Part shown: piece by piece, positions 3,557 to 64,000 of the stretch | Layout: each line of letters begins with the position of its first letter | Numbering within the stretch: the stretch's first letter is position 1 | From: a virus | DNA length: 64,000 nt | Virus record (IMG/VR): IMGVR_UViG_3300050821_007696 | Coordinates: 20,236-84,235 of that record | Direction: 5' to 3' (one strand) | Position numbers and translations under genes: made by a program | The notes under the pieces: generated by a model | Seen by the model: only the letters and a program-made list of their open reading frames with translations | Databases searched by the model: none | Told to the model about the DNA's origin: nothing

Positions 3557-4144
3557 GTGACCGGAGTCCAGGCGCTCACTATCACCCCCGACCCTGACCT
3601 GCCGTTCCTGTCAGCTGCCGCGGTGATCCGCGACGTCCAGAAGACCGAGCACCAGTGGTTCAGCCAGGGTGACCCGGCGTCCCCGACCCTGCCCTGGATG
3701 CCGTTCCAGCCGGCTGACTTCCTGTCGATCCTCTTCGAGTGCATCCCCGAGCTGACGGGCCGGGGCTTCCTTGACGTCGGGTGCGGCCCCGGCACCAAGA
3801 TGCTCCTGGCCCGTCACTTTTACGGGCTGAACGCCTGCGGCATCGAGATCGTGCCGGCGATGGCGAAGGCGGCTGGGCAGTACGGCGACGTCTGGAACGA
3901 CGACGCTCTCCAGATGCCTCCCGGCGCCTACGCCTCGTGGGACCTGGTCTGGCTGTACCGGCCGTTCCGCGACCGGCTGCTGGAAGAGCAGCTCGAAGCT
4001 CGCATCATGGACGAGATGCAGCCCGGCGCGATCCTGGCCGGCGGAGGCTGGGAGCTGTGCCCGGCGGCGGTCGGCTGGCCGCCCGTGATGGATGACTGGG
4101 AACTGCGGCGCGGTGCCTGGATGAAGCCTACGATGCAGTCATGA
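3557..4144 (+). CDS. Class I SAM-dependent methyltransferase
   Basis: FLDVGCGPG motif I, GIEI, YRPF. Confidence 0.8.
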   Translation: MTGVQALTITPDPDLPFLSAAAVIRDVQKTEHQWFSQGDPASPTLPWMPFQPADFLSILFECIPELTGRGFLDVGCGPGTKMLLARHFYGLNACGIEIVPAMAKAAGQYGDVWNDDALQMPPGAYASWDLVWLYRPFRDRLLEEQLEARIMDEMQPGAILAGGGWELCPAAVGWPPVMDDWELRRGAWMKPTMQS

Positions 4145-9475: not shown

Positions 9476-9537
9476 CCCCGTCTGGCGTTGACCCCATGGG
9501 GCTCCGTTATGTCTATGGCCAGCGGGGTGTGTGACAG

Positions 9538-16010: not shown

Positions 16011-16164
16011 CAGCGCTGCCGGGCGTTCGCCAATTGGCATTCGTGCTTACATTGGCCCGGCGGCGCTGTCTCATGCAGCACCAGTCCCCGTAGTGTTTGT
16101 TCCGAACGCCGCGGCCTGACCTCAGGAGCCGGTCCGATCCAGCTTTTGAGGAGATGGCGGCGGC

Positions 16165-21180: not shown

Positions 21181-21258
21181 CCGCTGCGGGCGTATCCGTT
21201 GTAGGTTGCGTGAGTATTGTGGCCCGCGTGACAGCCAGCGTGACTGTAGTATATGTGT

Positions 21259-36709: not shown

Positions 36710-37279
36710 GGCCCTGCGGCGTCCTCAAGCTTGCCCTGCCCGGCGAGGTACGTCTCGATGGCGCCGCCTCTTGGCAGGTCAACGGGTGCGCCCCGGTGCC
36801 GCCCGGCAGGCGGGTCGCGGAGGATCTCGGCGGCCAGCTGCCGGAGAACCCCGGCCATGTGGTCGTCGTGGCTGCGGCAGACCAGCTGCGTACTGCCGTC
36901 TTCGCTCAGTACCAGGAGGAACTCCTCCCCCTGGCACTCGGCACAGCGAATGTGCACGCGTTCTCCTTCGCCTAGTTCTGCTCGTCGCCCTCGGGGAACA
37001 GGAGCTGGTGCGTGCGCGTGCCCAGGACGGACTGCTGGAACTGCCAGTCTTTCCGCCAGATAACCGGGACTGACGCCCCCTGGCTGTTGCTCGCGCCGCC
37101 GTTGGCGAAACTGTTCTTCATGACGGTTCCTTCCGGTAGGTGTACGTGACCTAACTTACGCCACATACGAAGTATTCCGCCACCGGAAGGGGATACCGCG
37201 CCCTGGCGTGCTGACTTTAGGTCCCGCTGGGACAGTTGGCCGGGCACGGAATGTCAGGCCCCCAAGTTAGGCTGCCTGC

Positions 37280-43158: not shown

Positions 43159-44142
43159 TTGCTGGCGGGCTGCACGACAGGTAACCATGAGACCAGGCCC
43201 AGCAGCCCGCCTCCGGAAGGACAGTCCGTGACAGGTCACCACCACCCGCACCCGAAGCCGCCGAAGCCCCCCGTCCCCCCGTCCCCGCCCGTGACCGGCA
43301 AGTACCTGTTCGAGGACGAGTTCACCGGGCCGGCCGGCGCGTCCCCGGACGAGGGCACCTCGCCGTCGTCGAAGCTGTGGACGCTGCGCAGCGGCTTCAC
43401 CAACAACGGCGCCTACGTGACCGGCAGCCCGGCGGTCGCCTACCTGGACGGCAGCGCGCAGGGCAACCTGGTGCTGGCCGTCGGGAAGGCGGGCTCCCTC
43501 GGGGCGAAGGCGGGCTTCTTCCCGGCCCCGATCCTCGACACCGGCGGCGGCCCTGCTTCGCAGCAGTACCCGAGCGACGGCAGCCCGGTGAACTTCGCGC
43601 TCCAGCCGGGCATGTCCTGCGAGATGCGGGTCGCGGTCAACACGGTTGCCGGCACCTGGCCCGCGGCGTGGTTCGTGCCGGTTCTCGCCGGGGCGAACTA
43701 CCCGGAGGGCTGGTCCGAGATCGACATGGAGGAGAGCTACGGGACCGGTTTCGCGGACTCCTCGATCTGGAGCACGTCGTCCGGCGGCGACCTGGTGAAC
43801 ACGGCGAACCCGAAGGTGCTGCCGAAGCTGGACAGCGGCTTCCACGTGTTCCGCCTCGACTACGAGGGCTCGGGCAGCACCGTGTCGCAGGTCTCGATGT
43901 ACCTGGACAACGCGGCTGTCCCGTACAGCACGATGACCCCGGCCGCAGCCAAGGCCAAGGGCGCCGTCTGGAACTACGACAGCAACCAGGGCATGTTCAT
44001 CGAGCTGAACGTAGCGGTATTCAGCACCACCACCTGGCAGCCGACGCCGCCGAAGGCCGGCAGCACCCCCGGCGTGATCATGCAGGTCGACTACGCCCGG
44101 GCGTGGGCTCCTGCCGGGCCTGACCCGGTCGCCGGGAAATAA
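43159..44142 (+). CDS. GH16-like glycoside hydrolase (probable lipoprotein, start uncertain)
   Basis: FEDEF, WPAAW, EIDMEE catalytic motif, FHVF, MQVDYAR; LAGC. Confidence 0.8.
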   Translation: MLAGCTTGNHETRPSSPPPEGQSVTGHHHPHPKPPKPPVPPSPPVTGKYLFEDEFTGPAGASPDEGTSPSSKLWTLRSGFTNNGAYVTGSPAVAYLDGSAQGNLVLAVGKAGSLGAKAGFFPAPILDTGGGPASQQYPSDGSPVNFALQPGMSCEMRVAVNTVAGTWPAAWFVPVLAGANYPEGWSEIDMEESYGTGFADSSIWSTSSGGDLVNTANPKVLPKLDSGFHVFRLDYEGSGSTVSQVSMYLDNAAVPYSTMTPAAAKAKGAVWNYDSNQGMFIELNVAVFSTTTWQPTPPKAGSTPGVIMQVDYARAWAPAGPDPVAGK

Positions 44143-44352
44143 CCGCCAGCCGGGCCATGTTAGGGACGTAACCCAGTGAGGCCGCGCCCGGCTGGCGGGG
44201 ACACGATCAGGACGCCGCCCAATAAGGCAACGCCCCGCCCCGGACCCGGTTGCAAACGGGTGCGAATCCCGTGCTGCAGGCAGCGGTGACAGTCCGTGCC
44301 AGCCGGATGCGACGGCCGCTCTCCAAGCCTCCGGGGAGCGGCCGTTGCCGTC

Positions 44353-47048: not shown

Positions 47049-48150
47049 AAGGAGAAGGAGAGCGGATGACAGGCAGGAAGCAGAACGCCGTCCGCGTGCC
47101 CGCGGGAGCTTTGCGCCTGCTGGCGCTGGACGCCCTGCAGCGGTACGTACACGACATGGGACTGCTCCAGCCTGGCGACATGCTGTTCAGCAAGATCCTC
47201 GACCGCGTGTGCGATGCCGAGTAAGCGGGGCAAGGGGAAGAAGCGCCAGCATGTCTACCGCAGGCCGAAAGCACGGCCGGGCGCGAAGTTCCCCGGCAGC
47301 CACCACTGCCCCGAGTGCGGCAAGTGGTGCTACCGGACGCGGGATGACGCGCAGGACGCCGTGCGGCAGATGCACCCGGGTGCGACGGTGCACTATTACG
47401 AGTGCACGACCGAGGCCGGCGCCTGGTGGCATTTCACGTCGATGACCGCGGCGCAAGTGGAGGACATCCGCGCCCGCGAGTCAGTCCTGCCTCCGGACGA
47501 GCCGGAAGAATTCGCCTGCTAAAGGTGTTGCACGTGCTATGACTAGTAAAGGACAGCCTGCCTGCCCGTACCGGCTTTCCTGCGTGTGCGACTGCCGCAA
47601 CGAGGACGGGACGCGAGGCGGCTGCCTCGACAACCGGCACTGCGGCAAGCACGCCCGGGGCTGCCACTACTACTGCGGAACCTGAAGGAGCCAGCATGCC
47701 GGTCTGCGGTGTTACCTGGGGGATGTGCGCGATGCGCAGCGGAAATGGCCGGAACAACCCGCACCTGTGCACCGACACCAGCGGGAAGGCGCACCACCAC
47801 GTGTGCACCGCCTGCGAGACGCCGAAGTGACCCGGCCGCCGAAGCCGGCGGACCCGGACTGCGGGTACTGCCAGTACATCTGGCACCAGAGCCGGTGGCT
47901 CCTGTCGGTGCACCCCAACTGCCGGCGGCACAGGAAGTAAAGGAGAACAGGTGGCGAGGAAAGAGCAGTGCCCCGAACAGTGCTACCAGTGCAGCAACCA
48001 GTGCAAGCTCGAAGCGGGCCACCCCTGGACGCAGATGCACGACTGCGGCCGGGACCACAGCAAGTAAAGGACAGGCCGGGGCCGGCCCAGCTTCTCACGT
48101 GACCCGAAGTGGAAACGCCAGGCCCGGTTACAACTGGAGAGGAAGCACGC

Positions 48151-49191
48151 ATGACGCTGCGGTACGTCAGCCTGTTCAGCGGCGCAGGCGGGCTCGACCT
48201 GGGACTGACCCGGGCCGGCTTCACCCCGGTGATGGCCACCGACGAGAACCGGAACGCGTGCGCGACGCTGCGCTCGGCGATGCCGCCGGTCCCGGTAGTG
48301 CAGGCCGACATCCACGACCTGCTCAACGCCGGGGACACCGGGGTACTCGCCCGCCAGGCGCCGGACGGCCTCGTCGCGGGGCACCCGCCCCTGGTGAGCA
48401 GCGGCAGGTTCGACAAGCTGGCCGACCCGGACGGCGACGAGCCGCAGCTGCTCTACCGGTTCCTCGACGCCGTCGCCCTGGTCCGCCCGGCCGCGTTCGC
48501 CCTGGCTACCATCCCCGCGCTCGCCAGTCTCCGGTGGTCCGCGGTGATGACCCGGCTGCGGCGGCTGGCCCGTGACCACGGCTACGACACCTTCGCCCCC
48601 GTGCTCGACGCCGCCGACTACGGCGTGCCGCAGCACCGGGAGCTGCTGTTCCTGATCGGGATGCCGAAAGGCTGCAAGCCGGACGCGTCCGCCGCGGAAA
48701 CCACGGCCGGGCGGGCTAGTGCGGGCGCTGCGCTGGCAAATCTGCCGGCCGGGGCCAGGGACGTGCCGTGCCCGGCCGGGGTGACCCTCGCCGCTCACCC
48801 GGTGCTGCGCAACTCGCCGTACTCCGGGCAGCTGCTGTCGGGAACCGGGCGGATGCTCGACCTGCGCCGCACCGCGCCGTTCATCGCCGCGGCACTCGGC
48901 GGCAACCGCACCCCGGTACTCGACCTGGACCAGCTGGAGTACGGCGCGGCACCGTGGATTGAGCGTTACCACGAGTACCTGTCGAAATGGGGCGGTACCC
49001 CGGGTACGTTCGACGGGACGCCCGGCCGGATGCGCAGGCTATCGCTGCGGGAGTGCGCCGCGCTCCAGGGGTTCCCGCCCGGTCACCCGTTCAGCGGCAG
49101 CCCCGTCGCCCAGTTCAAGCTAGCGGGCGCGGCTGCTCCCCCGGCTCTCGGCGAGGCCGTCGGCCGCAGCATCCTGGCGGGACTGGCATGA
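48151..49191 (+). CDS. DNA cytosine-C5 methyltransferase homologue lacking the catalytic Cys
   Basis: SLFSGAGG, YGVPQHRE and RECAALQGFP present; motif IV reads GHPPL and motif VI reads ATI. Confidence 0.8.
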   Translation: MTLRYVSLFSGAGGLDLGLTRAGFTPVMATDENRNACATLRSAMPPVPVVQADIHDLLNAGDTGVLARQAPDGLVAGHPPLVSSGRFDKLADPDGDEPQLLYRFLDAVALVRPAAFALATIPALASLRWSAVMTRLRRLARDHGYDTFAPVLDAADYGVPQHRELLFLIGMPKGCKPDASAAETTAGRASAGAALANLPAGARDVPCPAGVTLAAHPVLRNSPYSGQLLSGTGRMLDLRRTAPFIAAALGGNRTPVLDLDQLEYGAAPWIERYHEYLSKWGGTPGTFDGTPGRMRRLSLRECAALQGFPPGHPFSGSPVAQFKLAGAAAPPALGEAVGRSILAGLA

Positions 49192-56927: not shown

Positions 56928-56928
56928 G

Positions 56929-57002
56929 ATGACATCGGGGGACTTGAACCCCCAATACCCGGTTCCGAATACCGGTGCGTTTTCCGATTACGCTAGGTGT
57001 CG
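56929..57002 (-). tRNA. tRNA-Arg(TCG), atypical acceptor stem
   Basis: CCGGT-AT-TCG-GA-ACCGG anticodon arm; GGGGG-TTCAAGT-CCCCC T arm; two C-A mismatches in the acceptor stem. Confidence 0.65.
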
Positions 57003-57008
57003 GTTGGC

Positions 57009-57146
57009 GTCTTCGTGATCGTTGAGGTGCAGCCGCTCTTCCGAGGGGTGATGCTCTGCCAGCTGAGCTACGCCCCGATGCTGGACGGGGCGCGGGGGGT
57101 CGAACCCCGGACCTTCACCTTGACGTAACTGCCCTCGCGGGAAGAC
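57009..57146 (-). ncRNA. Circularly permuted tRNA-like RNA (YrlA/Y-RNA-like)
   Basis: Order on the minus strand: GGTGA, T arm, CGCCCCG, loop TCCAGCAT, CGGGGCG, D arm, TCACC. The flanks pair into an extended bulged stem. Confidence 0.8.
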
Positions 57147-57266
57147 CTGAAGGCTAACGGCTCGAAGGACAAGGAGCGAACGGCTGAGCAGCACGGCTCC
57201 CGGCTAACGGCTGATGCTAGGTCCTTACAGGAGTAACACTACCGCACGCCGGGCGCACGCGCAAAC

Positions 57267-58031
57267 TTACGGCCGCCGCAGCCACTCGAAGATCGCCGCG
57301 CCCTCGTTCAGCTGGGTGACCTGCGCCGAGTTCGCCTCTTCCCTCGCCATCTTCACCGCGGTCCGCAGCTGCGACAGCCGGTCGGTCAGCTGCGCCTTCC
57401 GTTCGGCGGGCAGCGCACCCGAGTAGTTCACCGTGGTGGTGTACTCGACGACCTCGTCGCGGGTCATCACGTCCACGATCTCCTGGAACTTGTCGGTGCC
57501 GTTGCCGCGGTGCCAGTTGAACGGCACCTTCTCCTTGCGGTCGCCTTCCTTCTCGGCCGACTTCCACTGGCCCGGCTCGACGTTCTCCGTCGTCCAGGTC
57601 TGCGCCCCGTCGAGCACCGGGATGCCCGCGACCAGCGTCAGCAGCTTGCCGATCTCGCCCTCCAGGTACACCAGGTGACGTACCGGGACGTCGTGCAGCA
57701 GCACCTCGCCGTCTACGGTGACGTCCGCCTTCGCGGCGCCCTGCGCGGTGTCCAGCGTCAGCGCCAGGTCCCAGCCCTGGGTCAGCACCTTCTCCGCGTC
57801 GGCCAGTGCCTGTCCGGCGGTGTACCGGACCTTGGTCACCTGGGGAGGCGTAGCACGCCGCCGCTGCCGGTTCTTCTCCTCGCCGTCCGGGTCGGTCAGC
57901 CGGGACGTCTTGACCAGGCCCGTCATCAGGGTCTCACTGTGCGCGGCCTGGGTCAGCCGGGTTACAGCCGCGTCGGTCTCGGCCTTGACGCCGCCGATAA
58001 CCGCGAGCAGCTGGTGAATGCGAACAGCCAT
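57267..58031 (-). CDS. Conserved actinobacterial/phage protein (DUF7873-like)
   Basis: IHQLLAV..GVK, A.ADVTVDG.VL..DVPV..L.YLE and SGALP...L..AVK.AREEAN motifs, recognised from memory of Streptomyces homologues. Confidence 0.65.
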   Translation of the reverse strand: MAVRIHQLLAVIGGVKAETDAAVTRLTQAAHSETLMTGLVKTSRLTDPDGEEKNRQRRRATPPQVTKVRYTAGQALADAEKVLTQGWDLALTLDTAQGAAKADVTVDGEVLLHDVPVRHLVYLEGEIGKLLTLVAGIPVLDGAQTWTTENVEPGQWKSAEKEGDRKEKVPFNWHRGNGTDKFQEIVDVMTRDEVVEYTTTVNYSGALPAERKAQLTDRLSQLRTAVKMAREEANSAQVTQLNEGAAIFEWLRRP

Positions 58032-58170
58032 GCCTTTCTCCTTCTTCCTAGTTCCCGCCCTTGCAGACGCACATAACGCACGTGCACTTGCACTTAGCGG
58101 GGCACGAGCACTGGATCGTGCTTACCGTCGCCCCGCAGCAGCTGTCCTTCGTCGTACTTTCCTTCCGGTT

Positions 58171-58298
58171 CAGCGGCGCAGACAGACTGGGTACCGCGTG
58201 TCAAGTAGCCGCCGGCGGCGTTGTCAAGTCGGGCCTCGTGGGTTAAGTGACCGCCGGCGGTGTAGCCAAGTTAGGTTTCGCGCGGTGAATGTCCGCCG
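58171..58298 (-). repeat. Orphan TIGR-like mini-array (3 units)
   Basis: Six exact 9-nt spacers separated by alternating 9-nt loop repeats and 15-nt edge repeats matching the arrays at 62-64 kb. Confidence 0.75.
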
Positions 58299-58360
58299 TG
58301 CGTGGAACCGCCGCCCCGCGACGGCTCTGGGGAAGACGGCCGGGCCGCGGGACGGCGGAG

Positions 58361-58432
58361 AGCCTCGTCGCGGGATTGAACCGCGGACCTTCGCCTTACC
58401 ATGGCGGCGCTCTGCCACTGAGCTAACGAGGC
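58361..58432 (-). tRNA. tRNA-Thr(GGT)
   Basis: GCCTCGT/ACGAGGC acceptor stem; AT-GGT-AA loop; GGTTCAATCC T arm. Confidence 0.9.
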
Positions 58433-58718
58433 GCAACCGGGCGGGGGTGCTGCCACTGTGGGGGACGCTGCGGATAATGTCCCCGCCCGGGTCGCGGGTT
58501 ACAGAACGGGGGCGGTGTCCTGGGCGTACGGACCGGTGCCGAGGTCGAAACCGGGGTAAGCCCACCCGCTGATGACGCCCTGGTCCAGTGCCCGGTCGAA
58601 GGTCATCAGCGCCTGGCGGTGCGCGCCGCAGCCGGAGCACTGCTCCTGGTCCGCCCGGACGATGTGGGAACAGTTGCGGCAGTAGCCGTGGCCCTGCCCG
58701 GTGTGCTCGTAGCACATG

Positions 58719-59756: not shown

Positions 59757-59826
59757 ACGGTAATCCGTGATCATCAGTGCGGGGCGTGACTAAATTGGTG
59801 CGCGTTACGCTGTTGGCCCCCTTGCG

Positions 59827-60370: not shown

Positions 60371-60571
60371 TCAGTCTTCCACCGTGTAGGTGTCCGTTGC
60401 CTGCGGCCCGTTCGCCACGGTCACTTTCTTCGCCCCGGCCCGCAGCTGGGACAGCACCTGCTCCGCGTACTCCTCCGTCGCGCTGACTTCCAGTTCGGCC
60501 GCCAGCTCGTCCAGGGAGTACCAGGTCTCCGGGTCGTCCTCGAACCCGTTGGACGTCACCAGGATTCTCAC
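60371..60571 (-). CDS. Small acidic hypothetical protein
   Basis: GGAGG RBS; GTGA overlap with the upstream gene. Confidence 0.5.
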   Translation of the reverse strand: MRILVTSNGFEDDPETWYSLDELAAELEVSATEEYAEQVLSQLRAGAKKVTVANGPQATDTYTVED

Positions 60572-61587
60572 TCGCCGTCCTCCTTCCGGGTACCCGCGCC
60601 CGCGGCGATCTTCTCGCGCAGGGCCAGCAGCTGGGACATGTCGCCGCGTTCCATCGCCTCGCGGGCGGTGCGCAGCTGGTGGCGGGTCATCGTGCCCGCG
60701 TCCGGCGGCAGGAAGTCCGGCACGTTCGCGGCCGGGAAGTACAGCGACCCGTCGCGGCGCCGCTCGAATCCCGGGTTCACCCGCGTGTAGCCGGCCCCGG
60801 TGACATTCTTGTTCCAGGACGTGGCGTAGGCGTAGAACTCCATCAGCCGCCGGTCGGCCGGGCGCCGGTCGCGCTTGACGCCGTTCATCAGCCAGTTGCG
60901 CAGCGCCATCGCGGGATCGCCCTTGACCAGGTTCTCGCCGTGGCGGACCTTCTCCCAGAACGGGTCCACGGTGAACGTGCCGTCCTCCGCGACCGACCCG
61001 GTGCGCCACACGGCGAAGGCCGCCCAGCTCGGGTTGGCGTGCACCGCCCGGTACAGTGCCTCCCCGGCGTGAATCGACTTCATCACCGCGTCGCTGTTCA
61101 GGTGCGCGTTCTTGGCCTGCTGGGTGACCGGGTACCGGCTCGGGTTGCGGATGCCCTCGACCCCGTAGCCCTCGTACAGGGCCATGTACCGGGTCAGCAC
61201 CGACTGGCGCTTGTAGTCGGGCACCTCGCCCATGCGGAGCATGTCCGCGTAGGTGCGCTTGCGGCCGGTGTCGATGTACTCCGCCGCCTCGTCGCGCACG
61301 CCGTAGATGAACAGCATCCACGCGCTGATCCCGGTGTTGACCACCGCCTGGAACCGGTGCTGGGCGTCGTAGGACGCCGGGCTGTCCGGGTCGGCGTCCA
61401 TGAACACCGGGCTGATCTCCGGCCACCACGAGTCAGACTTCAGGTTCTCCTCCTGGAGCCCCACCTCCATCCGCGACCTGCTGCGGTTGGGGTGCATCGT
61501 CTCCAGCAGCTCTTTCGCTATCTCCGGTGTCACCAGGACTTCCTCCGTGCGGAAGCCCGGCGGGAATCCCCTGCTCTGTCGGGACAT
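60568..61587 (-). CDS. ParB/Srx-like (DGQHR-type) N-terminal domain protein
   Basis: VTPEIAKELL...NR and YDAQHRFQAV...IDTGRKRT..D motifs; GAGGAG RBS before ATG 61587. Confidence 0.6.
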   Translation of the reverse strand: MSRQSRGFPPGFRTEEVLVTPEIAKELLETMHPNRSRSRMEVGLQEENLKSDSWWPEISPVFMDADPDSPASYDAQHRFQAVVNTGISAWMLFIYGVRDEAAEYIDTGRKRTYADMLRMGEVPDYKRQSVLTRYMALYEGYGVEGIRNPSRYPVTQQAKNAHLNSDAVMKSIHAGEALYRAVHANPSWAAFAVWRTGSVAEDGTFTVDPFWEKVRHGENLVKGDPAMALRNWLMNGVKRDRRPADRRLMEFYAYATSWNKNVTGAGYTRVNPGFERRRDGSLYFPAANVPDFLPPDAGTMTRHQLRTAREAMERGDMSQLLALREKIAAGAGTRKEDGE

Positions 61588-61678
61588 GCTTTCTCCTCTT
61601 TCACTGAGAGTCACTGACAGGCATAACATGCCATGCGTAACATCTATTCCTCGTCCGGGCAGCTGCCCTCAGCAGGGC

Positions 61679-61975
61679 TCACCCGTGCTCTTTCCCGTAA
61701 TTCACGCCGTACAGGAACGCGTCGCGCGCCTCGGTTTTCTCCGGTGCGGTGTCGTCATAGCCCTCGCAGTGCGTCTCCCGCCAGTACTCCTCGAACGCTG
61801 CCTCCAGGCCGAACGGCTGCCCGTCGGCGCGCTCCAGGTTCGTGACCTTCAGGGTGTACCCGCCGGAACTCAGCCGCACGGGATTGGCGCCGGCGCGAGT
61901 CATCGCGGCTAGGGTGCCGTCCGGGTCCTCGCCGGACACCGTCACCTTCAGGTCCAGCGTCTTCGTCCTGCTCAT
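61679..61975 (-). CDS. Hypothetical protein
   Basis: AGGAGG RBS and ATG at 61975, immediately after the array. Confidence 0.6.
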   Translation of the reverse strand: MSRTKTLDLKVTVSGEDPDGTLAAMTRAGANPVRLSSGGYTLKVTNLERADGQPFGLEAAFEEYWRETHCEGYDDTAPEKTEARDAFLYGVNYGKEHG

Positions 61976-62000
61976 GCTCTTCCTCCTTTTCTCTCGTTCC

Positions 62001-62545
62001 TGTGCCCGGCGTATTCCACGTGGCTGCCGCAGGGGTGACGGCCGGGCGTTATTACCGATGGCTGCCGTAGCAGGTACGGCCCGGCGCCTGCAAGCTGGTG
62101 CTCGTTTTCGAAGTGGCCGGGCGGCGTTACACACTGGGGTCGCGCGCCATGTTTGGCCGCCCGGCGTTATTCGCTTGGTGCCCGCAGATCTTGTGGCCGG
62201 GCGTTTCCAGCTTGGCTCCCGCTGATTCAGTGGCCCGGCGTACTTACGATGGAGCTGCCGTGCTTCGATTGGCCGGGCCGGGGCGTCTGTCGCGTGGTTC
62301 CCGTTATGAGGATGTCCCCTCTGCCCTGGCGTTCCTTCCATTGAGCCCTGTCCTGAGATTGGCCGGGCCGGGGCGTCTATCGCGTGGTTCCCGCTGCTCG
62401 TATGTCCCCTCTGCCCTGGCGTCTCGCCTTCGGTTCCCGTTTCCGTTACAGCCGGGCGGGGCGTACCCGCGATGGCTCCCGTGACCTACTCGGCCCCCTG
62501 CCCCGGCGTTACCCACACTGGGCCGCGTCTCCACATTGGCCAGGG
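62001..62545 (-). repeat. TIGR-like array downstream of tas (about 13 dual-spacer units)
   Basis: Units of edge repeat (10-19 nt), 9-nt spacer, loop repeat (mostly 9 nt, CGGGAACCA-like on the minus strand) and 9-nt spacer. Confidence 0.85.
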
Positions 62546-62557
62546 CAGGGAAACCCC

Positions 62558-63463
62558 TCAGCTGTGCAGCCCGCCCCCGGTCCGGTGCCTGCCCCGGCGC
62601 CTGCCCTCCTCGCCCGCCCGGCTCGCGCCGAACACCGGCTCCTGCCCCCCGGCCGTCAGCCACAGGTCCCGCAGGATCTCCTTCGCCGTGTGCCGCAGCG
62701 CGATCGCGTGCACGTGCGAGGGCTGAAACGGGTCGCCCGCCTCGGCGTAGCCCATCTTCGCCTTCTCCCGCTCGGCCAGCTCGCCGTAGAACTGCCCCGA
62801 GGTGTCCTGCGGGCGGGTCTTGCACTTGACGTACAGCGCCCCGGAGAACCCGCCCTCGCACTTCACCGAGTGCACCTTCAGCGCGTACTTCTCCTTCACC
62901 CGGTCGTACACGTGCCGGTACCCGGTGCCGCCCTTCGCGTTCGACTTCACCTGCGCCGACGCCAGCAGGTAGCCCAGCTTCTTCGCGTCGGGGCGGCCGT
63001 TCGCCATCAGTGCCTCCGCGTCCCCCTTCACGTCCCGGTTCTTCGGGGCGCCGCGGCCGGTGTACTGCCACAGCTGGCTCAGCATCCGCGGGTGCGGCTC
63101 GTCGTCCACCAGGTGCCGGTCGCTGCCGGTCCCCTCCCAGTGCCTCGGGTACGCCATCCGCGGGTCGCCGGTGATGCCCAGCAGCCGCGCCAGGGTGTGC
63201 TCCCCGATCCCCGGGGTCTCCCGCGCCCAGCTCTGCACCGTCTCCGGCACCGTCACCCGGTAGCAGGCCAGCAGCTCCTTCTCCGTCCGCTTCTCCGCCT
63301 CGGCGTACAGGTCCGCGACCGGCCCCAGGGCCTCGGTCGCGACCGTCCCCGACCGCTCCTTGTTGTCGAACGCGATCCGCGCGGCCTGCGCGTCCGCGAA
63401 CGCCTCCGCCCACATCCGCAGCTCCGCGTACGAGCCCGGGTTGGTGCGCTTCGGTGTCCTCAT
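62558..63463 (-). CDS. tasA: TasA-like Nop/IS110-related RNA-binding protein without a nuclease domain (301 aa)
   Basis: AGGAGG RBS and ATG at 63463; N-terminal coiled coil, TPGIGEHTLARLLG, SQLWQYTG, HAIALRHTAKEILRDLW; no DEDD RuvC or HNH domain; flanked by dual-spacer arrays. Confidence 0.8.
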   Translation of the reverse strand: MRTPKRTNPGSYAELRMWAEAFADAQAARIAFDNKERSGTVATEALGPVADLYAEAEKRTEKELLACYRVTVPETVQSWARETPGIGEHTLARLLGITGDPRMAYPRHWEGTGSDRHLVDDEPHPRMLSQLWQYTGRGAPKNRDVKGDAEALMANGRPDAKKLGYLLASAQVKSNAKGGTGYRHVYDRVKEKYALKVHSVKCEGGFSGALYVKCKTRPQDTSGQFYGELAEREKAKMGYAEAGDPFQPSHVHAIALRHTAKEILRDLWLTAGGQEPVFGASRAGEEGRRRGRHRTGGGLHS

Positions 63464-63478
63464 GCTGTTCCTCCTGTT

Positions 63479-64000
63479 TGCCCGGCGGCGTAAAGCCCTT
63501 GGTTTCCGTACCTGGTACGGCCGCCTGGCGTGTTCGGTGCTGAGCCTTGTTATCCTGCTGGCCGGCGGCGCTGGCATCTTGGGTACCGCCTAGCGTGTAG
63601 CCGCCTGGCGTGCCTGTTCTGGTCCTCGTGCAACATGTGGCCGGCGGCGTTTAGTGATTGGCTTCCGTCAGTTCGCTAGCCGCCCGGCGTGTCTCATTTA
63701 GTTTCCGCTGAACCGATAGCCGGCGGCGCCTGATCCACGGTTCTCGCCCTTCCACTGGCCGCCCGGCGTTCGATGTTCGGCTGTCGCGTAAACGGTGGCC
63801 TGGCGGCGCTGATCCTCTGGCTCCCGCGTTTTCGGTTTAGCCGCCCGGCGTATTTTCTCTGGTCCGCGTCGGGACTGTGGCCGGCGGCGTCCGGATGGTG
63901 GTTTCCGTCACTATATTGGCCGCCTGGCGCTTCCCCAGCGGGGCTCGTCTCCGTTCATAGCCGGCGGCGTCGCGATAGTGGTTCCCGTCATTAGACTGGC
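63479..64000 (-). repeat. TIGR-like array upstream of tas (at least 13 units, runs off the window)
   Basis: Period about 40 nt; plus strand TGGCCGGCGGCG or TAGCCGCCYGGCG, N9, TGGTTTCCG-like, N9. Confidence 0.9.

What the first reader, a model, noticed from the sequence alone, without database searches (positions are those of the whole stretch)
58171..58298. Orphan third mini-array 4 kb from tas, with spacers carrying -35 boxes
Seen: cagacagac-tgggtaccg-cgtgtcaag-tagccgccggcggcg-ttgtcaagt-cgggcctcg-tgggttaag-tgaccgccggcggtg-tagccaagt-taggtttcg-cgcggtgaa. All six spacers are exactly 9 nt, and the loop tgggtaccg is identical to one in the main array. Assuming target = spacerA + revcomp(spacerB), by analogy with IS110 bridge-RNA loops, two of the three targets are CTTGACACGCAGACAGAC and ACTTGACAATGGGTTAAG. 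Both have TTGACA within 1-2 nt of one end. Inference: guides supplied in trans that direct TasA to promoters.
Basis: partly seen in the sequence, partly recalled or inferred. Interest (0 to 1): 0.85.

Follow-up and report, generated by a model that had tools for sequence, protein, structure and literature searches.

The report
Distal TIGR guide-RNA mini-array in phage
The repeat at 58173-58298 is a real three-unit guide-RNA array of this soil phage's TIGR-TasA system, lying 4.3 kb from its protein gene and one of about ten guide genes scattered over the genome; no target was found, so the idea that it aims the protein at promoter -35 boxes has no support.

Summary
Window 58173-58298 holds three in-phase units of stem half / 9-nt spacer / 9-nt loop / 9-nt spacer. 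Two profiles built without them detect them, one from the tas-flanking arrays and one from two related phages only.

On it both repeat types read CG...CCA, and the array runs the same way as tasA, tRNA-Thr and the DUF7873 gene.

The 301-aa protein at 62558-63463 folds like solved TasH and TasR and shows no nuclease domain, so it is TasA-like.

The array is not unique. At least seven more solitary or paired units lie in intergenic gaps of the window, three clusters beside tRNA genes. Two related 117-122 kb phages show the same scatter, including a mini-array directly upstream of their DUF7873 gene. This scan has reported scattered tigRNA units in other phages before.

No target turned up in the phage, its relatives, 401 sampled Actinomycetes genomes or IMG/VR. 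Promoter-like hexamers are not enriched over 106 inferred targets. Promoter targeting is therefore neither shown nor excluded.

The parts
58263..58298 (-). Unit 1, the 5'-most on the minus strand. 5'-truncated edge CGGCGGACA (58298-58290; stem half GGCGG plus variant box C ACA), spacer A1 TTCACCGCG (58289-58281), loop CGAAACCTA (58280-58272), spacer B1 ACTTGGCTA (58271-58263). Inferred target T1 = TTCACCGCGTAGCCAAGT.
   Evidence: Sequence. R2 scores it 22.9 bits on the minus strand. It is the most degenerate unit: R1 did not score it.
58221..58262 (-). Unit 2. Edge CACCGCCGGCGGTCA (58262-58248; 3' stem half of unit 1 plus 5' stem half of unit 2), spacer A2 CTTAACCCA (58247-58239), loop CGAGGCCCG (58238-58230), spacer B2 ACTTGACAA (58229-58221). 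Inferred target T2 = CTTAACCCATTGTCAAGT.
   Evidence: R1 13.1 bits, E 0.011. R2 30.1 bits, E 0.0008 over the whole window. Its terminal stem forms in the minimum-energy fold. One soil contig reads G at 58250, which turns box C UCA into CCA.
58173..58220 (-). Unit 3. Edge CGCCGCCGGCGGCTA (58220-58206), spacer A3 CTTGACACG (58205-58197), loop CGGTACCCA (58196-58188), spacer B3 GTCTGTCTG (58187-58179), 3'-truncated edge CGCCGC (58178-58173). Inferred target T3 = CTTGACACGCAGACAGAC.
   Evidence: R1 15.8 bits, E 0.0016. R2 24.3 bits. The loop is identical to the array-1 loop at 63580-63588.
58097..58136 (-). G+C-rich hairpin about 36 nt 3' of the array. It has no U run. It may be a terminator or a processing structure ahead of the DUF7873 gene.
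   Evidence: It folds in both the minimum-energy and the centroid structure. The consensus terminator scan, which needs a T run, does not call it.
58308..58358 (-). Hairpin with a 13-bp stem between tRNA-Thr and the array.
   Evidence: If it terminates transcription the array needs its own promoter, and none was seen.
58360..58432 (-). tRNA-Thr (GGU), same strand, 61 nt 5' of the array.
   Evidence: ARAGORN and Rfam.
57267..58031 (-). DUF7873 gene (P0002), the next gene 3' of the array on the same strand.
   Evidence: Pfam PF25283, E 4.6e-59. In two related phages a 4-unit mini-array also sits directly upstream of the orthologous gene.
62558..63463 (-). tasA (P0003, 301 aa): Nop-domain protein with no nuclease domain detected.
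   Evidence: AlphaFold model with pLDDT 83. The best Foldseek hits are TasH 9vzx and 21kl and TasR 9mty (probability 1.0, E 5e-7 to 7e-6), then IS110-family recombinases. No Pfam hit; phrog_4285. The N-terminus is a helical hairpin.
63475..64000 (-). Array 1. About 13 units, from the right end of the genome to 15 nt before the tasA start codon.
61990..62547 (-). Array 2. About 13 units between the tasA stop and a 98-aa gene (61679-61975).
60568..61629 (-). 353-aa ParB/Srx-like gene downstream of tasA, a possible tasParB counterpart.
   Evidence: Conserved DGQHR motif. The best Foldseek hits are all ParB-N, ParB, Noc, KorB or sulfiredoxin, but weak (E 0.013-0.3). In a relative its locus tag (VGG75_38080) is 10 above that of a TasA homologue (VGG75_38070), so the two genes are probably neighbours.
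59777..59824 (-). Solitary tigRNA-like unit starting about 2 nt 3' of tRNA-Asp (ends at 59826): spacers ACAGCGTAA and ATTTAGTCA, 5-bp terminal stem.
   Evidence: R1 17.3 bits, R2 29.1 bits and E 0.0013, sequence.
16016..16063 (-). Solitary unit in an intergenic gap, 46 kb from tasA.
   Evidence: R1 19.1 bits, R2 40.5 bits and E 6.6e-6, gene map.
21183..21230 (-). Solitary unit 30 nt from tRNA-Arg (21259, + strand). A unit sits in the same position in relative G001.
   Evidence: R2 32.7 bits, E 0.00025.
37199..37247 (-). Solitary unit in a divergent intergenic region.
   Evidence: R1 16.3 bits, R2 26.0 bits.
44147..44240 (+). Two adjacent units on the plus strand, after the gene that ends at 44142. 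The first has a 13-bp perfect terminal stem.
   Evidence: R2 39.5 and 26.1 bits, sequence.
48078..48125 (+). Solitary unit just upstream of the gene at about 48109-49191.
   Evidence: R1 13.8 bits, R2 27.2 bits and E 0.0031.

Best explanation
The region is a genuine three-unit TIGR array of the stem-loop, or intermediate, type, encoded on the minus strand. Each unit is: 5' stem half, box C (CCA, CUA, UCA or ACA), 9-nt spacer A, 9-nt loop CG-NNNN-CCA, 9-nt spacer B, box D (CG or CA), 3' stem half. Each 15-nt 'repeat' is the 3' stem half of one unit joined to the 5' stem half of the next.

Inferred steps, not shown here. The units are transcribed with the co-oriented block of tRNA-Thr and the DUF7873 gene. 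They are cut into tigRNAs of roughly 45 nt. Dimers of the TasA made 4.3 kb away, possibly acting with the neighbouring ParB-like protein, load them in trans. By the published rule each RNP would bind an 18-bp DNA site, with spacer A pairing one strand and spacer B the other. The sites are T1 TTCACCGCGTAGCCAAGT, T2 CTTAACCCATTGTCAAGT and T3 CTTGACACGCAGACAGAC. TasA has no nuclease, so the expected outcome is binding and local repression, not cutting. The sites are not in the phage, so they should lie in the unknown host or in competing mobile elements. The mini-array is one member of a genome-wide set of scattered tigRNA genes that this phage lineage shares.
For: Anatomy and statistics. These include two profiles built without these units, one of them from other phages only.

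Strand: on the minus strand both repeat types end in CCA, the published box C, and the loop is A-rich like the TaTasR loop. Arrays 1 and 2 flank tasA on that strand, and array 1 ends at the tasA ribosome-binding site. R2 gives 23-30 bits on the minus strand against at most 3.6 on the plus strand.

Terminal stem: in 106 units chosen without regard to stems, stem positions 4-7 pair in 73-94% against 44-57% with shuffled partners, using both G-C and C-G. On the 68-unit alignment, whose rows were pre-selected for at least 6 of 7 stem pairs, 77 cells changed on both sides against 25.7 in shuffles.

Protein: the fold matches TasH and TasR.

Comparative: two phages whose TasA is about 69-75% identical carry 4-unit mini-arrays directly upstream of their DUF7873 gene on the same strand, with different spacers. 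They also carry 11 and 17 further distal clusters.

Placement: every solitary hit in the window lies in an intergenic gap, although about 83% of the genome is coding.

Array ends: both outer edges are truncated, as Faure et al. describe for TIGR arrays.

Function of the family: TasA RNPs bind DNA and repress transcription in reporter assays (Xu et al. 2026 preprint).
Against: There is no RNA evidence, so transcription, strand, processing and TasA loading are all inferred. No sigma-70-like promoter was found on the minus strand, and a strong hairpin lies between tRNA-Thr and the array. Unit 1 has variant boxes (ACA and CA) and may be decaying. No target was found for any of about 106 units, so DNA targeting by this lineage rests on analogy. 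Box D is CG here, not the published UG.
Confidence: 0.7

Rival explanations
1. One reading: the three guides direct TasA to -35 regions of sigma-70-type promoters, in the host or in a rival element, to shut off transcription.
For: B2 and A3 both start with (A)CUUGACA, and B1 and A2 start with ACUUGGC and CUUAAC, so TTGACA-like hexamers sit at the outer end of all three 18-bp sites. Exact TTGACA occurs in 3 of 106 targets against 0.7 expected, reached by 16 of 500 shuffles, and two of the three are here. TasA can repress transcription. Spacers are 46% G+C in a 67-68% G+C genome, as expected for regulatory DNA.
Against: No matching site was found anywhere. Matches of 5 of 6 to the -35 hexamer, and -10-like hexamers, are not enriched across the lineage's guides: 12 against 12.4, 33 against 37.6 and 9 against 14.4. 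The mini-arrays of the two relatives upstream of DUF7873 have no TTGAC. Units 1 and 2 may share the motif through duplication, since their targets are 11 of 18 identical (my own by-eye alignment of the sequences).
Confidence: 0.13
2. A decaying or inert fragment of the main arrays, copied to this spot by recombination and no longer used.
For: Unit 1 has non-canonical boxes. The 15-nt edges differ from the 12-13-nt edges of arrays 1 and 2. No promoter or target was found.
Against: The 9-9-9 geometry, the loop G:C pair and the terminal stems are intact in all three units. Relatives keep a mini-array in the same place with fully different spacers, which points to turnover under constraint. The region is unchanged in contigs of two further soil runs, and a third carries one change toward the consensus box C.
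Confidence: 0.1
3. The array is transcribed from the plus strand. The repeats would then read UGG...CG, and each target would have its two halves in the other order.
For: Read that way the repeats begin with UG, the published box D. Several solitary units lie antisense to the surrounding genes, so co-orientation is not a rule.
Against: The repeats would end in CG or GCG instead of CCA, and the loop would be U-rich instead of A-rich. The tas-flanking arrays and all three DUF7873 mini-arrays run with their neighbouring genes on the CG...CCA strand. The other join order has no matches either.
Confidence: 0.05
4. It is not a guide RNA at all but a structured intergenic repeat, such as a terminator, a REP-like element or a protein-binding DNA site, that merely resembles the arrays.
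For: It is G+C-rich and palindromic, and it lies between genes.
Against: It shares the specific two-spacer architecture, box nucleotides and loop with arrays that flank a protein of confirmed Tas fold, and profiles from other phages find it.
Confidence: 0.02

Closest known systems
Stem-loop and intermediate TIGR arrays with TasA (PlTasA of a Peromyscus leucopus gut contig; BlTasA; MbTasA). Faure et al. 2025, PMC12045711; Xu et al. 2026, bioRxiv 10.64898/2026.09.09.750476
   Same: A nuclease-less Nop-domain protein. [quoted passage not shown] Abutting or overlapping stems, that is zero linker. Arrays on both sides of tas. Sub-arrays separated by intergenic DNA.
   Different: Published arrays were sought and described around tas; the widest gap reported is about 450 nt, or units inside tas. 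Here the array is 4.3 kb away, and single units lie up to about 54 kb (weakest hit; about 46 kb for the best-scored one) from tas inside the window; the regex alone also flags units at genome 3629-3860, outside the window. Some are next to tRNA genes. Box D is CG, not UG. The CUU linker motif reported for processing has no counterpart, because there are no linkers.
Dual-repeat TIGR arrays (TaTasR, SpTasH, FpTasA). Faure et al. 2025
   Same: Edge / spacer A / loop / spacer B with 9-nt spacers. An A-rich 9-nt loop ending in CCA. Truncated edges at both array ends. The same tandem-spacer target rule.
   Different: The edges here are palindromic and vary between units with compensatory changes, forming a stem of about 7 bp. 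Units are about 42 nt rather than 36 nt. Whether this TasA has the Y/H processing loop was not examined.
TasA-tasParB operons (Faure et al. 2025, fig. S14 and methods)
   Same: tasA, an array, and then (after a 98-aa gene) a ParB/Srx-like gene on one strand.
   Different: The ParB assignment rests on a DGQHR motif and weak fold matches only. No comparison with the published tasParB sequences was possible.
Box C/D sRNAs, and dicistronic tRNA-snoRNA genes of plants (from my own knowledge, not tested here)
   Same: Small guide RNAs with box C/D-like anchors and a terminal stem, sometimes encoded directly beside a tRNA and released by tRNA-processing enzymes.
   Different: Those guide RNA methylation with fibrillarin. 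These are expected to guide DNA binding. Release by RNase P or RNase Z is only a suggestion here.

Membership tests
TIGR-Tas system (stem-loop/intermediate type, TasA) | A Tas protein with a Nop domain and a coiled-coil dimerisation hairpin | tested here: met
   P0003 model with pLDDT 83. The best Foldseek hits are TasH and TasR structures at probability 1.0.
TIGR-Tas system (stem-loop/intermediate type, TasA) | Units of two 8-12-nt spacers separated by a loop of about 9 nt and bounded by an edge repeat or stem | tested here: met
   All three units are 9-9-9. Profiles R1 and R2 detect them.
TIGR-Tas system (stem-loop/intermediate type, TasA) | Box C (CCA) before and box D (UG) after each spacer, covarying between edge and loop | tested here: inconclusive
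   Box C is CCA, CUA, UCA, ACA or CCG. Box D is CG, or CA once, in both edge and loop throughout the lineage. That is a consistent departure from UG in both elements.
TIGR-Tas system (stem-loop/intermediate type, TasA) | A terminal stem formed by the two ends of a unit, supported by covariation | tested here: met
   The stems of units 2 and 3 are 6 and 5 bp. Unit 1 has 5 bp plus a mismatch.
TIGR-Tas system (stem-loop/intermediate type, TasA) | Array next to or inside tas | tested here: not met
   It lies 4,260 bp from tasA, with several genes (among them the 98-aa, ParB-like and vWA-like ones) and two tRNA genes between. This is a matter of layout, not of mechanism.
TIGR-Tas system (stem-loop/intermediate type, TasA) | Expression and processing into discrete tigRNAs bound by Tas | not testable with these tools
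   This needs small-RNA sequencing or a pull-down.
TIGR-Tas system (stem-loop/intermediate type, TasA) | Sequence-specific DNA binding at spacer A + revcomp(spacer B) | not testable with these tools
   The rule was verified from published oligonucleotides. No natural site was found.
TasA-tasParB operon | A ParB-like gene in an operon with tasA | tested here: inconclusive
   DGQHR motif. Foldseek ParB/Srx hits at E 0.013-0.3. No Pfam or PDB sequence hit. The gene is probably a neighbour of tasA in a relative, by locus tags 10 apart.

The most novel reading that the evidence does not exclude
The mini-array is a dedicated promoter-silencing cassette. Its guides place TasA, perhaps with the ParB-like partner, over the -35 region of a small family of related host promoters carrying (A)CTTGRC. 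That would give the phage RNA-programmed shut-off of chosen host genes. The scatter of single guide genes beside tRNAs would let each be expressed and matured with a different transcription unit, and so at a different time in infection.
Probability: 0.12. Interest if true: 0.8.

Novelty: new variant of a known kind. Interest (0 to 1): 0.45.

Why it matters
The two TIGR-Tas papers read here for this point (Faure et al. 2025; Xu et al. 2026) mention no orphan, dispersed or solitary guides. Array finders look only around tas. This phage and two relatives show that a large share of the guide set can lie kilobases to tens of kilobases away, as mini-arrays or single stem-loop genes, some fused to tRNA genes. 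Catalogues built around tas therefore undercount guides. "Arrayless" Tas genes or "orphan" arrays may simply be halves of such dispersed systems. The natural targets and role of phage TasA remain open, and a culturable host for this lineage would make them testable. The specific -35 idea would be an important first natural function if true, but it has no support yet.

Tried and rejected
- **Self-targeting.** No site with 3 or fewer mismatches for T1-T3 exists in the 84-kb genome, in either join order. For 106 units against three phage genomes, real joins gave the same counts as control joins. A relaxed search, with one half perfect and the other at least 6 of 9, gave nothing beyond controls.
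- **Other loci held (1.08 Mb).** Only chance-level hits.
- **Sampled hosts.** T3 with up to 1 mismatch matched 0 of 401 Actinomycetes genomes, while the control pattern matched 2. A degenerate T1/T2 consensus gave 1 hit in 301 genomes. The host is unknown, so this says little.
- **IMG/VR.** T3 has 13 exact hits. They reduce to three independent sequences in unrelated 45-55% GC phage contigs, in what read as coding stretches. T2 has none. Canonical units whose spacer starts with ACTTGRC: none.
- **A look-alike guide in another phage.** A unit in L151 (a 60% GC phage) has spacers resembling unit 1 with the slots swapped. Ungapped identity of the two targets is only 11 of 18, which is common among random pairs. 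An all-against-all comparison of 152 units showed no excess of shared targets over shuffled partners. I dropped it as a lead only.
- **A shared 9-mer.** The 9-mer ACGCAGACA is shared between T3 and a spacer of relative G002. It is offset by 6 nt and I treat it as chance.
- **TTGACA as internal promoters.** No usable -10 follows either copy, and the promoter scan finds nothing on the minus strand.
- **A fourth unit 5' of tRNA-Thr (58437-58490).** It has a 10-bp stem, but R2 gives only 11 bits, about the same on both strands. Not claimed.
- **RNA evidence.** No RNA holder was listed among public runs. The contigs laid are DNA only.
- **Tools and collections.** The phages collection gave no megablast match.

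Full report
**What is there.** The window is the right-hand 64 kb of an 84,235-bp, 68% G+C virus record. Public contigs that hold it come from soil metagenomes.

Two 15-nt near-identical G+C-rich palindromic repeats and two truncated copies bound three blocks of 27 nt. Each block splits 9-9-9 around a middle element of the form yGGnnnnCG.

**The system it belongs to.** The same architecture fills 63475-64000 and about 61990-62547. These two arrays flank a minus-strand gene at 62558-63463. Its 301-aa product has no Pfam hit. Its AlphaFold model (pLDDT 83) matches the solved TasH and TasR structures best (probability 1.0, E 5e-7 to 7e-6), followed by IS110-family recombinases.

The protein starts with a helical hairpin and shows no HNH or RuvC domain, so it is TasA-like. 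The layout is the TIGR-Tas system of Faure et al. 2025.

**Strand.** Published tigRNA repeats start with UG (box D) and end with CCA (box C), and the loop is A-rich. On the minus strand the window's loops read CGGAAACCA and similar, and the edges read CG...CCA or CUA. On the plus strand they would end in CG.

Arrays 1 and 2 are co-oriented with tasA, and array 1 ends 15 nt before its start codon. The mini-array is co-oriented with tRNA-Thr, 61 nt upstream, and with the DUF7873 gene downstream.

| Unit | Element | Sequence | Window coordinates |
|---|---|---|---|
| 1 | 5'-truncated edge | CGGCGGACA | 58298-58290 |
| 1 | spacer A1 | TTCACCGCG | 58289-58281 |
| 1 | loop | CGAAACCTA | 58280-58272 |
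| 1 | spacer B1 | ACTTGGCTA | 58271-58263 |
| 1/2 | edge | CACCGCCGGCGGTCA | 58262-58248 |
| 2 | spacer A2 | CTTAACCCA | 58247-58239 |
| 2 | loop | CGAGGCCCG | 58238-58230 |
| 2 | spacer B2 | ACTTGACAA | 58229-58221 |
| 2/3 | edge | CGCCGCCGGCGGCTA | 58220-58206 |
| 3 | spacer A3 | CTTGACACG | 58205-58197 |
| 3 | loop | CGGTACCCA | 58196-58188 |
| 3 | spacer B3 | GTCTGTCTG | 58187-58179 |
| 3 | 3'-truncated edge | CGCCGC | 58178-58173 |

Truncated edges at both ends are what Faure et al. describe for TIGR arrays.

**Is it more than chance?** Model R1, built from 18 units of arrays 1 and 2 only, finds units 3 and 2 at E 0.0016 and 0.011 in a filter-free search of both strands of the window.

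Model R2 was built only from 68 units of two other phages, with a terminal stem and the loop pair as structure. It scores the three units 30.1, 24.3 and 22.9 bits on the minus strand, against at most 3.6 bits on the plus strand. Three abutting, in-phase hits of this strength cannot be chance.

**Type of array.** Each 15-nt edge is the 3' stem half of one unit (GCCGCC) joined to the 5' stem half of the next (GGCGGC). A processed unit can therefore close with a 5-6-bp stem, as a box C/D RNA does.

In 106 units from three phages, chosen without regard to stems, stem positions 4-7 pair in 73-94% of units. With shuffled partners the figure is 44-57%. Both G-C and C-G pairs occur.

On the 68-unit alignment, 77 cells have compensatory changes against 25.7 in shuffles. 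That set was pre-selected for pairing, so only the covariation counts there.

This makes the system a stem-loop or intermediate TIGR type with zero linker.

**It is not alone.** R1 and R2 also find solitary or paired units at the places below:

| Window coordinates | Strand | Note |
|---|---|---|
| 16016-16063 | - | |
| 21183-21230 | - | 30 nt from tRNA-Arg |
| 37199-37247 | - | |
| 44147-44240 | + | two units |
| 48078-48125 | + | |
| 59777-59824 | - | about 2 nt after tRNA-Asp |
| 9478-9526 | - | weak hit |

All lie in intergenic gaps of a genome that is about 83% coding.

**Relatives.** Two IMG/VR phages of 122 and 117 kb encode TasA homologues about 69-75% identical and DUF7873 homologues 63-65% identical. 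Each has a 4-unit mini-array directly upstream of its DUF7873 gene on the same strand, with unrelated spacers. They also have 11 and 17 distal clusters in all.

One relative has units in the same places beside tRNA-Arg and tRNA-Thr. Scattered guides, and a mini-array at this position, are therefore a conserved trait of the lineage. The same conclusion has been reached by this scan for other phages.

**Natural variation.** Contigs of three other soil runs cover parts of the mini-array. Two are identical over it. One has a single change, A to G at 58250, which turns the UCA box C of unit 2 into the consensus CCA. That rests on one contig at depth 4.4, so it is weak evidence.

**Targets.** Table S3 of Faure et al. 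lists TaTasR tigRNA1 and its synthetic target. Spacer A equals the first 9 nt of the target strand, and spacer B is the reverse complement of the next 9.

On the minus strand the rule gives T1 TTCACCGCGTAGCCAAGT, T2 CTTAACCCATTGTCAAGT and T3 CTTGACACGCAGACAGAC.

None has a site with 3 or fewer mismatches in the phage, in either join order. The 106 targets of three phages hit the three genomes no more often than wrong-join or reversed controls. They also hit 1.08 Mb of other loci no more often than controls.

- T3 with up to 1 mismatch matched none of 401 sampled Actinomycetes genomes.
- T3's 13 exact IMG/VR hits are three independent sequences in what read as coding stretches of unrelated 45-55% GC phage contigs.
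- T2 has no exact IMG/VR hit.
- A degenerate T1/T2 consensus gave one hit in 301 genomes.

Two TasA homologues carry the source name Trebonia sp. MAG. Beyond that the host is unknown, so these blanks do not exclude host targets.

**The -35 idea.** TTGACA is present in B2 and A3, each 1-2 nt from the outer end of its site. B1 (ACTTGGC) and A2 (CTTAAC) resemble it.

Over the 106 targets, exact TTGACA occurs 3 times against 0.7 in composition-preserving shuffles, and 16 of 500 shuffles reach 3. Matches of 5 of 6 (12 against 12.4), TANNNT (33 against 37.6) and TATAAT-like hexamers (9 against 14.4) are not enriched. The DUF7873 mini-arrays of the relatives have no TTGAC.

The motif is not the CUU processing signal of Xu et al., which lies in linkers outside the stems. 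Neither copy has a usable -10 downstream, so they are not promoters themselves.

What remains is a local oddity of modest significance, noticed after the fact. It may partly reflect duplication, since I count the targets of units 1 and 2 as 11 of 18 identical by eye. The spacers are 46% G+C in a 67-68% G+C genome. That fits regulatory or foreign DNA, but it also fits a simple need for easy strand opening.

**Mechanism.** Shown here: the anatomy, the fold of the protein, the conservation of the layout, and the absence of self-targets. Taken from the literature: TasA-type RNPs bind 18-bp sites through both strands and repress transcription without cutting.

Inferred: minus-strand transcription with the tRNA block, processing, loading in trans, and host or competitor targets. 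A 353-aa gene two genes downstream of tasA is ParB/Srx-like by a DGQHR motif and weak fold matches. It recalls the published tasA-tasParB operons and may take part.

**Verdict.** This is a real, conserved, distal TIGR mini-array. It is a new layout of a known system, not a new system. The promoter-targeting inference is unsupported but not excluded.

Noticed in passing
window 9478-9526, 16016-16063, 21183-21230, 37199-37247, 44147-44240, 48078-48125, 59777-59824: Solitary or paired tigRNA-like stem-loop units in intergenic gaps, up to about 54 kb (weakest hit) from tasA. Some lie antisense to the surrounding late genes. Three of seven distal clusters in the genome lie within 61 nt of a tRNA gene.
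   Followed up: partly
genome positions 3629-3860 (left of the window, + strand): The regex finds three more unit-like matches, two with box C ACA and one with an 11-bp stem. In the first, spacer B is nearly complementary to its own loop. None was scored with the models.
   Followed up: no
window 60568-61629 (-): A 353-aa protein with a conserved DGQHR motif whose best fold matches are ParB-N, ParB, Noc, KorB and sulfiredoxin, all weak. By its locus tag it is probably a neighbour of tasA in a relative. Possible tasParB counterpart.
   Followed up: partly
window 58437-58490 (-): A hairpin with a 10-bp stem and a 34-nt interior fills the gap between a gene stop and the 5' end of tRNA-Thr. Relative G001 has a clear tigRNA unit at the same position before its tRNA-Thr. 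Here the interior fits the unit model poorly (11 bits).
   Followed up: partly
window 63963-64000 and genome start: Array 1 runs to the last base of the record and begins there with a 5'-truncated edge (GCCA). If the genome circularises, its promoter would lie in the left end of the genome.
   Followed up: no
window 57009-57160 (-): tRNA-like pieces in an unusual order: a tRNA 3'-half-like stretch similar to tRNA-Thr (repeat D13), followed by a 5'-half-like stretch. ARAGORN calls only tRNA-Arg at 56928-57002.
   Followed up: no
window 62260-62422: Two array-2 units 90 nt apart are 86% identical over 73 nt. One spacer is nearly kept and the partner spacer is replaced, which looks like unit duplication followed by change of one half-guide.
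   Followed up: no
all arrays of G000, G001 and G002: The ninth spacer position was required to be A or G by the unit search, so that restriction is by construction; within it, A is strongly preferred (83 of 106 A spacers, 91 of 106 B spacers). If real, the conserved box D may be RCG and the freely variable part of each spacer 8 nt.
   Followed up: partly
G002 (L117/L118): units at 93923 and 108314: A solitary unit 14 kb from the arrays shares its whole spacer B (AATCCATCA) and its loop with an array unit, while spacer A differs. Half-guides appear to be exchanged or copied between array and scattered units.
   Followed up: no
window 56641, 60053 and others: Copies of a palindrome (GTGCCAGCTGGCAC-like) at gene ends in the tRNA/guide block.
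   Followed up: no
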